From a virus (lineage: Duplodnaviria; Heunggongvirae; Uroviricota; Caudoviricetes): a DNA stretch of 8,484 nt. Shown here one piece after another: positions 3,001-6,000 of this stretch. A program made the position numbers. How positions within the stretch are numbered: the stretch's first letter is position 1; each line of letters begins with the position of its first letter. Location of the stretch: positions 1-8,484 of the IMG/VR virus record IMGVR_UViG_2690316316_000010; one strand, 5' to 3'.

Positions 3001-6000
3001 CGCCACCGCCCCCCATCATCAGGCCGCGCGCTTCCTCCAGAAAATTCAGGAACTGGCAAAACTCAATAACCGGATCCGTCTGTTGCTTTATTGCCAGAGC
3101 TTCATCACCGTCACGCTGCTCAATGAGTAAAGCCCGTGCCTTTTCAGGGTCGGTAAAGTTCGCCAGCAAGCGGCGGATAATGACGGGGATTTCAGCCGCA
3201 ATTTTTTCCGGTAGCTCCCTGTCTTTTTCGGCCTCACTAACAATATTGTCGAAACGGAAAATCACGCGACGACGTGCCACACCTCCGGCCCGTTCGGTGA
3301 ATATCATCGGGTTGTTGTTGGTCGCCAGCACCACCGCCCTGATTACCGCCGTGAAACGCTTTTCATATTTCGGGTTAATTTCCACGGGGTCGCCGCCCGT
3401 GATTTTCTTGATGCCCGTTCCTTCGCCTGTATATTTCGGCTGGTCAGCCAGGACAATAAGACGACTCCCGACAACCTGCGCACGTCCACCAGCATCATCA
3501 AGCGATGTCATTTCAGCGCTTACCGTGTTCTGTTTCCCTGCCAGAAGGCTGGCTATGTGTGTGAATGTACTTTTACCGCTCCCGCCGTCTCCGGTGGCCT
3601 CAATAAACATCTGCCAGTCGTACCGGTTCGCCATAATCATGTACAGCGCGGCACATATACGCATCATCTTGCGCGGGTCTTTTCCGGCTGCGTGCTCAAG
3701 CCATTTATGAAAGTTTGGCGCGTTATCGCGGATGTTCTCCCCTGGTGCTGGTGGCGTGTACTCAATGCCGTTGTTCGTGGTGATCCAGTTCTCCGGCGTG
3801 TGCGGGGAAAATTCCCCCGTTTTCAGGTCAAGCGCACCATTGGCGAACGGCAGCAAATCGCCGGACGGCTCGCCCATTGGTTCGGCAATAACTTTTAACG
3901 CTTCCACGGCGTTATTGATTACGCGCTTGCTGAAAGTGGCCCTGTGCTCTGAATAGATCGCCACCATTTCGCGGCTAAGTTCCATTGTGCTGACCGGACA
4001 CCATACCCCGCCGCGCCATACGTGAACGATTTCACTTTCCGGATGCACACAAACGCCATCAAATCGACCAGCAAGCATCTGTGCGCGCTCACTGTCTGCC
4101 ATTTGTGCCAGTTGCGTATTTTTCTGCTCCGGCATGGTAAGCCCTGCGGCAATATTTTCACGCTCAGCATTCAGATAGCGCCGCCAGTTTTCACACTTCT
4201 GGACGTGCATTCCTTCGGGGTAAAAATTTGCGTCCTGAATATCTGCCGCCGCCAGCTTCTGACCAATCTTTTTGGTCTCCACCAAATCCAGTTCTCCGGC
4301 CTGGTACAGCCTTACGCGCTTTTTCCCATCCGGAACAATTTTCAGTGCATCAAGTTCGGCAAGCTGATTTGGCCCAAGCCACACAGGCGGCACATTATCG
4401 CCGGATGCGGGGCCATCCTGCTCCTGCCATTGTTTCGCGTGCGACCAGGCATCACTACCCGCGAAAATAATTACCTCTGTGTCTTTGTGTTTTATTCCGC
4501 GTGGCTGTTTTTTTACGTTCGGTGCCAGTTTCATTTTTTACCCCTGAATACGTTAAGCATCTTTTTTATTTCCTGAATATTGGCGCGTGCTTTCTCCCTG
4601 CTGGTTGGTTTACTGCGGGGCGCTGCCTGTACCAGAGAAAAATCACGCCGAAACTGATAAACAGGCATCACGCAATCATATTCGTAGCCTTCACGACGGT
4701 AGGTGATGCGCCGTTCTGCCACGCCTTTAATCGTTACCATGCCGCCATATTTATCGCGGTAAATATCGCCGTTCATAAATTCAGGACGAGCGGGGCCGCT
4801 GGCAGTAACGCCAGAATTTTTATTTTTCATGTTTTTTATTCTCCGGTGTGCTGCGCTTTATTATTCTCGTGAATTGCCATCACTGTATTTAATTCATTAA
4901 TAACAGGCGTTAATAGCGTACGCACGGCAGAAAACATCATTGAATCAGATTCATCGCCACTTTCCGGCACATCAATTAACTTAAGTAGTAATGCGTCCAT
5001 TTCCTTTGCGCGGATTAATGCGTTTTCAGAATGAACAAGAACATCAAAGGGTATTTTATGCATGACTCCCCCCCTGGCGAATACGGGCGACAAAAATAAG
5101 ATGTGCGTGCGGCAACTGGGCGCGGGCTTCGCGCTCAGTGGCAGCGGTAACGGTGAATATTGCAATACTGTCTGTCAGGCACTGCATAAAGCGCCAGACA
5201 AAATAAGGGCGTGCGGATACAGCCATGTGAAAGGCTCCCAGATGAATTTTAAGGAGTCTCGCTACTACGCTGTCAAACATGGTGGCGAGACGTAACAGGG
5301 TTGACAGACTGGTCATCTGGAAACCAGCGAGCACAAAGGCTCCCCCGTTACGCCCCGCCATAATGCGGGTATGGGTAGGTTTACGGACACAAAAAAACCG
5401 CTTATCGGATGTGGGCGGCTGTCCGCCAGATGTATTCAGGCTGTCAAACCCGGTCGCCATGTGGGCGACGGGGGAAGCATACAGCCCCGTGATAATTTTT
5501 TGCAAGCGGTTTTTACGCATGATGTGACCCCTGACGAATACGGGCGGCGAATACAGCAACACAACCGGACGGGCAACGGCTACGCGCTTCGCGTTCCGTC
5601 CAGGCGGTTACGTGGATGATTTGAGATTCTCCGGCACTCAGTGCCAGAAAACGCCACACAAAGGCAGTTTGTGTGTGCGCCAGACGTGGGGTATGCTGTG
5701 TTCCAGCCATAATCGTTACTCCTGTTAACGGTTTGGTTAGACGCCCCGCTACTGCCGCAAACAGTTCGGGGCGTTGTCGTTTACATCCTCTTACTGAGGT
5801 GTGATTTAAATTAAATTCAACTGAATCACAGGTCAAGTGTTTTTTGTGATTCTTTTTTGTGTATACTGAATCACATCTTTTGTTTAGGAGAATGCACATG
5901 GCAAAAAACACTATCAACGACAAATCAAAACAGATTTCAATTCGTATCCCACATGATGCTTTTGATGGCATGGAATCCGTAAAACTGGACGGCGAAAGCA

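What the first reader, a model, noticed from the sequence alone, without database searches (positions are those of the whole stretch)
5800..5875. Array of four alternating TGTGATTC half-sites bracketing divergent promoters
Four copies of an 8-bp motif alternate in orientation at 22-23 bp (about two helical turns), forming two palindromes. One overlaps the extended -10 of the plus-strand RHH-like gene; the other overlaps the candidate promoter (-35 TTGACC) of the minus-strand Icd-like/primase operon. This is the layout of a bistable or autoregulated switch, and RHH proteins typically bind such arrayed repeats as dimers of dimers. It is the most likely control point of island induction.
Basis: seen in the sequence. 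Interest (0 to 1): 0.65.

Follow-up and report, generated by a model that had tools for sequence, protein, structure and literature searches.

The report
Repressor operator array in phage satellite
A 76-bp stretch between two back-to-back promoters of an E. coli phage satellite carries four evenly spaced binding sites that most likely belong to the small DNA-binding protein encoded next to it; this would be a candidate for the silencing repressor that has not been identified in Gram-negative satellites.

Summary
TGTGATT or its complement occurs four times in the 8.5-kb window, all between 5800 and 5875, alternating in orientation at 23/22/23 bp. One 8-mer is TGTGATTT, not TGTGATTC.

The window is a capsid-forming PICI-type satellite. 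The array lies between an Icd-like/C4-RNA/primase operon (minus strand) and a 101-aa YlcI/YnfO-family gene (plus strand). The N-terminal domain of that protein models as a ribbon-helix-helix fold.

In 18 non-redundant relatives from about 10 genera, four sites sit at the same offsets (about -98, -75, -53 and -30 from the ATG). Their sequence changes in step with residues 9-17 of the protein, giving at least six classes. AlpA, the Icd-like ORF and a small downstream ORF do not co-vary with the sites.

A -35 (TTGACN, leftward) and a -10 (TATACT, rightward) are conserved inside the array.

Best reading: this is an operator array of a satellite-encoded RHH repressor. It would silence the replication operon and autoregulate its own gene, with exchangeable specificity cassettes.

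Binding, the direction of regulation and any role in induction are inferred, not shown. Published work makes AlpA the inducer. I found no paper describing this module.

The parts
5800..5807 (+). Site O1, (G)TGTGATTT. Lies over the predicted start of the leftward transcript.
   Evidence: The same position (-98/-99 from the ATG) is occupied in all 18 relatives.
5823..5830 (-). Site O2, GAATCACA on the + strand (TGTGATTC on the - strand). Lies in the spacer of the leftward promoter and abuts its -35.
5845..5852 (+). Site O3, TGTGATTC. Lies where the (poor) -35 and spacer of the rightward promoter would be.
5868..5875 (-). Site O4, GAATCACA. Immediately follows the rightward -10, over the predicted start of the rightward transcript.
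5831..5836 (-). Candidate -35 of the leftward promoter PL (TTGACC).
   Evidence: At least 5 of 6 matches to TTGACA in 16 of 18 loci, at the same position. By consensus and conservation only.
5808..5813 (-). Candidate -10 of PL (TAATTT, 17-bp spacer). Weak, 3 of 6.
   Evidence: A TAAnnT-type hexamer 16-18 bp from the -35 in nearly all loci. Inferred.
5862..5867 (+). Candidate -10 of the rightward promoter PR (TATACT), preceded by GTG.
   Evidence: TATACT in 11 of 18 loci and TATAAT in one. The hexamer ends 29-30 bp before the ATG in 15 of 18 loci. Inferred.
5898..6203 (+). 101-aa YlcI/YnfO-family gene: N-terminal ribbon-helix-helix-like domain (residues about 9-54) plus a long C-terminal helix (59-100). 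RBS AGGAG at 5886-5890.
5513..5710 (-). First gene of the leftward operon, a 65-aa Icd-like protein.
   Evidence: NCBIfam NF033153. RefSeq annotation of a 99.9% identical region.
5741..5774 (-). Conserved GC-rich hairpin in the leader between the array and the Icd-like gene.
   Evidence: 5 of 10 pairs show compensatory changes in 18 loci. -21 kcal/mol on either strand.
5278..5482 (-). P1 immI-like RNA module inside the leftward operon: c4-a1b1 targets (5433-5482) and C4 antisense RNA (5278-5365).
   Evidence: Rfam RF01695, 72.6 bits (gathering score 45). RF03163, 46.8 bits (gathering score 46.7).
6261..6434 (+). Small basic ORF (57 aa, motif FALEQFLK) 58 bp after the RHH gene, probably co-transcribed with it.
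   Evidence: The motif is conserved in loci with different RHH classes. No Pfam match.
6704..6892 (-). alpA, convergent with the RHH gene and co-directional with the leftward operon.
   Evidence: Pfam PF05930, 65.2 bits.

Best explanation
The four sites are the operators of the satellite's own 101-aa YlcI/YnfO-family protein, a ribbon-helix-helix DNA-binding protein with a long C-terminal helix.

The array covers two back-to-back promoters. O1 and O2 bracket the -10 and the start site of the leftward promoter, which drives the Icd-like / C4-RNA / DUF4222 / primase operon. O3 and O4 bracket the -10 and the start site of the rightward promoter of the RHH gene itself.

One RHH dimer would sit on each 7-9-bp site. 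The sites are about two helical turns apart, so neighbouring dimers would lie on roughly the same face of the DNA. The C-terminal helices would tie them into a higher-order complex. The bound complex occludes RNA polymerase at both promoters, so the protein silences the replication/packaging operon and limits its own synthesis.

The invariant Arg16 would read the invariant GTG/CAC part of every site. The variable strand residues (11-15) would read the variable part. Operator plus strand-coding segment therefore form an exchangeable specificity ('immunity') cassette.

Shown here: the sites, their fixed geometry, their class-wise co-variation with the protein's N-terminus, the conserved promoter hexamers, and the RHH-like model. 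Inferred: binding, stoichiometry, repression, and the residue-to-base assignment.
For: 1. The array is non-random and unique in the window.

2. Geometry is conserved. In 18 non-redundant loci from Escherichia, Citrobacter, Klebsiella, Serratia, Edwardsiella, Yersinia, Photorhabdus, Xenorhabdus, Pantoea, Lelliottia, Scandinavium, Raoultella and one Pseudomonas assembly, four sites lie at about -98, -75, -53 and -30 from the ATG.

3. All four sites change together, class by class, with residues 9-17:
- KSKQISIRIP with TGTGATT, in 5 genera
- KSQLTTVRVP with TGT(G/A)TTTC
- KSQIKNVRVP with GTGTG(C/T)AT
- KSQQLNARFP with GGTATTCA
- KSQS(L/V)TARIP with GTGTAA(G/T)
- KSQMTTLRVP with GTGAGATAT

4. Reciprocal mosaics. 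E. coli loci L025, L010 and L013 are 93-100% identical to the window in the upstream flank (5528-5677), and L025 and L013 also downstream of about 6220. They are only about 40-75% identical across 5680-5950. The Serratia locus L028 is 13-66% identical across most of the compared region, but 96% identical in 5798-5857 and 83-86% identical in 5888-5947.

5. Within the TGTGATT class, 54 of 78 array columns are invariant, against 2 of 57 columns outside the array.

6. Other nearby proteins do not co-vary.
- AlpA is 98% identical between the window and loci with other operator classes, but 31% identical in L028, which has the same operators.
- The Icd-like ORF is nearly identical across classes.
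- So is the small downstream ORF.

8. Promoter hexamers are conserved inside the array.

9. All six viral-contig loci that carry both inverted repeats 45 bp apart encode the KSKQISIRIP protein right next to them.
Against: - There is no binding or expression data.
- The generic promoter scan found nothing at its threshold. PL has a weak -10 (3 of 6) and PR a poor -35 (2 of 6).
- Operators and the strand-coding segment are only about 100 bp apart, so part of the co-variation is plain linkage. A Mantel test gave the same correlation for site columns and non-site columns (0.47 each). Within a class, sites are not significantly better conserved than the spacers between them.
- In the GTGTGCAT class the inner two sites are flipped (-> -> <- <-), so 'two palindromes' is not the conserved feature.
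- One class pair with similar strands (L007 and L010) has different sites.
- Published induction of related elements runs through AlpA.
Confidence: 0.7

Rival explanations
1. The sites are bound by a helper-phage protein (repressor, Cro-like protein or antirepressor), so that the satellite senses its helper. The adjacent RHH gene is merely linked.
For: Satellites couple their cycle to helper proteins, and alpA is switched on by an unidentified helper factor. Linkage can mimic co-variation.
Against: - The class-wise concerted change of four sites tracks the adjacent protein across about 10 genera.
- No homologue of the 101-aa protein was found in 50,697 phage genomes.
- In viral contigs the paired inverted repeats occur only beside the cognate satellite gene.
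Confidence: 0.08
2. The RHH protein binds the array but only autoregulates its own small operon, as RHH antitoxins do, or activates PL rather than repressing it. It would then not be the silencer of the replication operon.
For: - RHH antitoxins are the commonest structural neighbours.
- A small conserved ORF follows the gene.
- PR has a poor -35 under O3, and PL has a weak -10. Both features can go with activation.
Against: - O1 and O2 lie in the spacer and over the start region of PL. O2 abuts a near-consensus -35. This is a repressor layout.
- The downstream ORF has no toxin-family match.
- The array's dyad spans both promoters in every class.
Confidence: 0.12
3. AlpA, the known activator of Gram-negative PICIs, binds the sites.
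For: AlpA is required for induction and activates PICI genes. alpA lies 800 bp away.
Against: AlpA is 95-98% identical in loci whose sites are TGTGATT, TGTGTTTC, GTGAGATAT or GTGTGCAT. It is only 31% identical in Serratia L028, which has the same TGTGATT sites. Other loci carry an HTH_17 protein instead, or have no AlpA called within 1.5 kb.
Confidence: 0.03
4. A host factor such as CRP (TGTGA half-sites) binds the array.
For: TGTGA/TCACA are the CRP half-site pentamers (textbook knowledge).
Against: - Spacing is N21 between pentamers, not N6.
- Within E. coli alone the same positions carry at least five unrelated site sequences. A host factor would keep one.
Confidence: 0.02
5. The inverted repeats act as RNA hairpins in the two transcripts.
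For: Each inverted repeat can fold (-7.5 and -8.7 kcal/mol; z -2.2 and -3.7).
Against: - The stems are short and AT-rich, with 15-nt loops.
- The predicted start sites leave only one arm of each repeat in the RNA.
- The GTGTGCAT class has direct repeats at these positions, so no local hairpin is possible.
Confidence: 0.02

Closest known systems
Phage P22 immI region (Arc and Mnt RHH repressors at the divergent Pant/Pmnt promoters)
   Different: - Arc and Mnt bind one 17-21-bp operator with half-sites one turn apart. Here there are four sites about two turns apart.
- There is one regulator here, not two.
- There is no significant sequence similarity.
Knowledge of P22 is from memory and was not tested here.
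NikR (RHH tetramer on GTATGA-N16-TCATAC)
   Different: - The C-terminal part here is a single long helix, not a nickel-binding ACT domain.
- There are four sites, not two.
- The inner sites are flipped in one class.
The operator geometry of NikR is from memory.
Omega repressor of pSM19035 (RHH dimers on arrays of WATCACW heptads in direct or inverted orientation)
   Same: An array of 7-bp sites, each for one RHH dimer, tolerates either orientation. The heptad WATCACW even fits AATCACA.
   Different: Omega heptads are contiguous, whereas these sites are 22-23 bp apart. No sequence relationship was tested. The resemblance is recalled from memory and is a lead only.
SaPI/PICI Stl (Rpr) master repressor at the stl-str divergent promoters of Gram-positive PICIs
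   Same: A satellite-encoded regulator is transcribed divergently from the replication/packaging operon, with operators in the intergenic region (describes this layout).
   Different: - Stl proteins are larger HTH proteins.
- Here the regulator points towards int/alpA rather than away from them.
- Derepression by a helper protein has not been examined.
- For Gram-negative PICIs the literature says a global repressor is 'unclear'.
Phage P1/P7 immI (promoter P51 - a1b1 - c4 RNA - a2b2 - icd - ant)
   Same: The leftward operon contains c4-a1b1, a C4 RNA and Icd-like ORFs above the Rfam and NCBIfam thresholds. The array would then be the counterpart of the repressor-controlled promoter in front of immI.
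   Different: In P1 that promoter is controlled by the C1 repressor (from memory). Here the candidate is an RHH protein, and primase/packaging genes follow in place of ant.

Membership tests
YlcI/YnfO family (NCBIfam NF041551) | Score above the curated cut-off of the N-terminal domain model | tested here: met
   65.7 bits against a cut-off of 30, residues 9-50. RefSeq names the identical protein YlcI/YnfO family.
Ribbon-helix-helix (MetJ/Arc/CopG) superfamily | Strand-helix-helix fold of about 45 residues | tested here: met
Ribbon-helix-helix (MetJ/Arc/CopG) superfamily | Sequence match to a curated RHH family at its gathering score | tested here: not met
   No Pfam family at E <= 0.01. Only weak PF07704 hits (best E 0.00098; the window protein scores 16.5 bits against a gathering score of 28.3) in 24 of 32 homologues. 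No PDB sequence hit.
Ribbon-helix-helix (MetJ/Arc/CopG) superfamily | Dimer with an intermolecular two-stranded sheet that inserts into the major groove | not testable with these tools
   Only monomer prediction is available. Indirect support: the strand residues co-vary with the site sequence.
Capsid-forming PICI / Gram-negative PICI | int, alpA and a primase-type replication gene in one direction, plus own terS and capsid genes, and no tail or lysis genes | tested here: met
   In the window: integrase 7267-8484, AlpA, D5-type primase, Terminase_2 and a capsid-like ORF. A related element carries portal, protease and capsid genes. The window ends inside the capsid gene, so absence of tail genes was not checked.
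CRP-binding site | TGTGA-N6-TCACA dyad | tested here: not met
   The pentamers are 21 bp apart, and the sites differ between E. coli loci.
P1 immI-type C4 RNA module | C4 RNA and a1b1 target elements above the Rfam gathering scores, next to icd | tested here: met
   RF01695 72.6 bits against 45. RF03163 46.8 against 46.7 (borderline). Icd-like domains lie on both sides.
Type II toxin-antitoxin (RHH antitoxin) | Toxin gene directly downstream in the same operon | tested here: inconclusive
   A conserved 57-aa basic ORF follows, but it has no Pfam match. It is absent from or different in several loci.
NikR family | C-terminal metal-binding ACT-like tetramerisation domain | tested here: not met
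   The C-terminal half is a single helix, residues 59-100. The likeness is in operator geometry only.

The most novel reading that the evidence does not exclude
The YlcI/YnfO-type RHH protein and its four-site array would be the missing master repressor of a large group of Gram-negative PICIs and capsid-forming PICIs. Its six or more operator/strand classes would define satellite 'immunity groups'. Induction would work by overriding it. One route would be AlpA-driven transcription from the convergent alpA promoter reading antisense through the RHH gene and across the array into the replication operon. Another would be a helper-encoded antirepressor.
Probability: 0.3. Interest if true: 0.72.

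Novelty: new variant of a known kind. Interest (0 to 1): 0.55.

Why it matters

This module offers a concrete, testable candidate for how these satellites are kept silent. It is a conserved repressor-operator unit sitting exactly on the promoter of the replication/packaging operon. It is present in hundreds of E. coli genomes and in about ten other genera.

The class structure would also be of practical use. It predicts which satellites can coexist or cross-repress, and it gives a set of small orthogonal repressor/operator pairs. It also assigns a function to the uncharacterised YlcI/YnfO family.

Tried and rejected
- A generic sigma-70 scan of 5500-6300 found no promoter at its threshold. Promoter calls therefore rest on hexamers conserved across loci.
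- A Mantel test meant to separate site from non-site co-variation did not separate them (0.47 for both). The whole cassette is inherited together. The reciprocal mosaics were more informative.
- A Fisher test of sites against inter-site spacers within a class was not significant, because the spacers hold the promoter elements.
- A scan of viral contigs for TGTGATT-N17-AATCACA gave mostly single hits consistent with chance. It gave no sign of the operator in helper phages.
- tblastn against 50,697 phage genomes found no homologue.
- Literature searches for YlcI/YnfO, RHH plus PICI, and cf-PICI plus repressor found no description of the module.
- AlpA, CRP, the Icd-like ORF and the small downstream ORF were each considered as the binding factor and rejected, because they do not co-vary with the sites.
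Full report
**1. What is in the sequence**

Region 5711-5897 is a 187-bp intergenic stretch of 40% G+C, in a window of 48% G+C.

The 8-mer TGTGATTC is exact at 5823-5830(-), 5845-5852(+) and 5868-5875(-). The copy at 5800-5807(+) reads TGTGATTT. The 7-mer TGTGATT/AATCACA occurs four times in the whole 8484-bp window, and all four are these, in the order + - + -. Spacing is 23, 22 and 23 bp.

The sites form two 31-bp inverted repeats 45 bp apart. The longer direct repeat ACTGAATCACA marks the right arm of each. The array as a whole has a dyad near 5837/5838.

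In 20,000 dinucleotide-preserving shuffles of the intergenic region, a non-low-complexity 7-mer family reached four copies 16 times. That count ignores spacing and orientation.

**2. Context**

The window is a phage satellite of the Gram-negative PICI / capsid-forming PICI type.
- Minus strand: integrase (7267-8484), AlpA (6704-6892), an Icd-like ORF (5513-5710), a second Icd-like ORF, DUF4222, a D5-type primase (2786-4534), a small terminase and a capsid-like ORF.
- Plus strand: only the 101-aa gene at 5898-6203 and a small ORF after it.
- Between the two Icd-like ORFs, Rfam finds the a1b1 target element (5433-5482) and a C4 antisense RNA (5278-5365). This is the arrangement of the phage P1 immI region.
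- A 99.9% identical copy of 5500-6300 lies in an E. coli O10:H32 chromosome, inside an element with portal, protease and capsid genes. There the 101-aa protein is annotated as YlcI/YnfO family.

**3. The protein**

NCBIfam places it in YlcI_YnfO_N (65.7 bits against a cut-off of 30). Pfam has no match at its thresholds. No PDB sequence is similar.

AlphaFold2 with 32 homologues gives an extended N-terminal segment, helices at 19-28 and 35-54, and one long helix at 59-100.

Weak hits to the RHH family PF07704 appear in 24 of 32 homologues. Some sources name homologues CopG-family or Arc-like. I take the RHH fold as likely but not proven.

**4. Related loci: the decisive comparison**

I collected 18 non-redundant loci. 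They come from Escherichia, Citrobacter, Klebsiella, Serratia, Edwardsiella, Yersinia, Photorhabdus, Xenorhabdus, Pantoea, Lelliottia, Scandinavium, Raoultella and one Pseudomonas assembly.

In every one, repeated sites lie at about -98, -75, -53 and -30 from the ATG of the homologue. About half have a fifth site about 22 bp further upstream. The window lacks this fifth site.

The sequence of the sites is not conserved across loci. It changes as a set, class by class, with residues 9-17 of the protein, which are the putative strand:
- KSKQISIRIP goes with TGTGATT (window, Yersinia, Klebsiella, Edwardsiella, Serratia).
- KSQLTTVRVP goes with TGT(G/A)TTTC.
- KSQIKNVRVP goes with GTGTG(C/T)AT.
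- KSQQLNARFP goes with GGTATTCA.
- KSQS(L/V)TARIP goes with GTGTAA(G/T).
- KSQMTTLRVP goes with GTGAGATAT.

Arg16 and Pro18 are invariant. A GTG/CAC element recurs in the sites of every class.

Mapping onto Arc by pattern (R13-W14-P15 of Arc against R16-I17-P18 here) puts residues 12, 14 and 16 on the DNA-facing side. This is an inference.

**5. Is the co-variation more than linkage?**

The operators and the strand-coding segment are only about 100 bp apart. A Mantel test gave the same correlation for site and non-site columns, so linkage contributes. Two comparisons go beyond linkage.
- E. coli loci L025, L010 and L013 are 93-100% identical to the window in the upstream flank (5528-5677). L025 and L013 are also that close downstream of about 6220. 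Across 5680-5950 all three fall to about 40-75%. A cassette has been exchanged.
- Serratia L028 is 13-66% identical across most of the compared region. It is 96% identical in 5798-5857 (the array) and 83-86% identical in 5888-5947 (the strand-coding part).

Within the TGTGATT class, 54 of 78 array columns are invariant, against 2 of 57 outside it.

Other candidate factors do not follow the sites.
- AlpA is 95-98% identical between the window and loci of three other classes. It is only 31% identical in L028, which shares the window's sites.
- The Icd-like ORF is nearly identical across classes.
- So is the small downstream ORF.

In IMG/VR contigs, all six loci with both inverted repeats 45 bp apart encode the KSKQISIRIP protein beside them. 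Single matches elsewhere look like chance.

**6. Promoters**

On the minus strand, TTGACC (5836..5831) is followed after 17 bp by TAATTT (5813..5808). A TTGACN-type -35 with at least 5 of 6 matches is present in 16 of 18 loci. A TAAnnT-type hexamer follows at 16-18 bp in nearly all.

On the plus strand, TATACT (5862-5867) is present in 11 of 18 loci, and TATAAT in one. It ends 29-30 bp before the ATG in 15 of 18 loci. Its -35 is only a T-run. The TG before it sits one base too close to count as a canonical extended -10.

Site positions relative to these elements:
- O2 lies in the PL spacer and abuts its -35.
- O1 lies over the predicted PL start.
- O3 lies in the -35/spacer region of PR.
- O4 lies over the predicted PR start.

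This is a repressor layout for both promoters. None of it has been mapped experimentally, and the generic scan found no promoter at its threshold.

**7. Mechanism proposed**

One RHH dimer binds per site. The sites are about two turns apart, on roughly one face of the helix. The 42-residue C-terminal helices join dimers into a higher-order complex.

Two sub-models remain open.
- A tetramer per inverted repeat, with NikR-like geometry.
- A cooperative array of dimers, omega-like.

The array model explains more easily why the GTGTGCAT class has its inner two sites flipped (-> -> <- <-) while the overall dyad is kept.

The consequence would be silencing of the icd/C4/primase operon plus negative autoregulation. 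A second layer of control, the C4 RNA, lies inside the operon.

**8. Relation to induction**

Published work shows that AlpA activates Gram-negative PICIs, that helper phages switch on alpA, and that an alpA mutant of the prototype capsid-forming PICI is not induced. [quoted passage not shown]

Here alpA is co-directional with the leftward operon and convergent with the RHH gene. Transcription from alpA would therefore run antisense through the RHH gene and over the array. The scan shows only weak terminator-like sites in between. Whether induction works this way is speculation.

'Bistable' lacks a second regulator.

**9. Comparison with known systems**

The module works like the RHH repressor/operator systems of mobile elements: P22 Arc/Mnt, omega, CopG and NikR in geometry. 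It occupies the place that Stl/Rpr has in Gram-positive PICIs. It is not a sequence-level member of any of those families.

I found no paper that describes it. One 2026 survey merely lists 'YlcI/YnfO, prophage-associated protein' in cf-PICIs. The protein has no homologue in 50,697 deposited phage genomes.

In the O157:H7 EcCIEDL933-like element the same slot holds an unannotated 57-aa Arc-like ORF with its own pair of palindromes. The slot seems to accept alternative RHH cassettes.

**10. Verdict**

- The interpretation as an operator array of the adjacent RHH-like protein is well supported by comparative evidence, but it is untested biochemically.
- The roles in bistability and induction are open.
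- I rate it a new variant of a known kind, of moderate interest.

Noticed in passing
window 2540-2780: At least ten copies of GGTAGA/TCTACC-type short repeats, with longer 21-30-nt repeat units, lie in the gap just 3' of the primase gene. This is probably the iteron-type replication origin of the satellite.
   Followed up: partly
window 5741-5774: A GC-rich hairpin in the leader between the array and the Icd-like gene is conserved in 18 loci, with compensatory changes in 5 of 10 pairs. On the plus strand it is followed by a T-rich tract in most relatives (terminator-like). On the minus strand it is followed by a conserved UCUAACCA. Its strand and function are undecided.
   Followed up: partly
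window 5278-5482 (minus strand): A P1 immI-like module lies between two Icd-like ORFs inside the satellite's early operon: c4-a1b1 targets, a C4 antisense RNA (72.6 bits), and an overlapping sub-threshold isrK match.
   Followed up: partly
window 6261-6434 (+), possibly from 6246: A small basic ORF (57-62 aa, RKRRRRK, motif FALEQFLK) lies 58 bp after the RHH gene. The motif recurs in loci with different RHH classes. There is no Pfam match. It overlaps a RefSeq 'Icd-like pseudogene' call on the other strand.
   Followed up: partly
L148 2776-2990 (E. coli O157:H7, EcCIEDL933-like element): The same slot between alpA and the Icd-like gene holds an unannotated 57-aa Arc-like ORF (MSTPLEKRSPPYQMRLPEDF...; weak PF03869, E 0.038). 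It is preceded by two copies of the palindrome GGTAATTACC 30 bp apart, and the second copy overlaps the start codon. This looks like an alternative RHH cassette.
   Followed up: partly
L006, L009, L011, L023, L025 and others, about -117 to -122 from the ATG: About half of the related loci have a fifth copy of their own site about 22 bp beyond O1, inside the leader of the leftward transcript. The window lacks it.
   Followed up: partly
window 1345-1411: Short tandem coding repeats (KKVTKKVTEKVT) lie inside the small-terminase ORF.
   Followed up: no
window 6089-6646 (minus strand): RefSeq annotates an incomplete Icd-like pseudogene antisense to the RHH gene and the small ORF. The mechanical 377-aa ORF 5513-6646 that runs through the array is probably spurious.
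   Followed up: no
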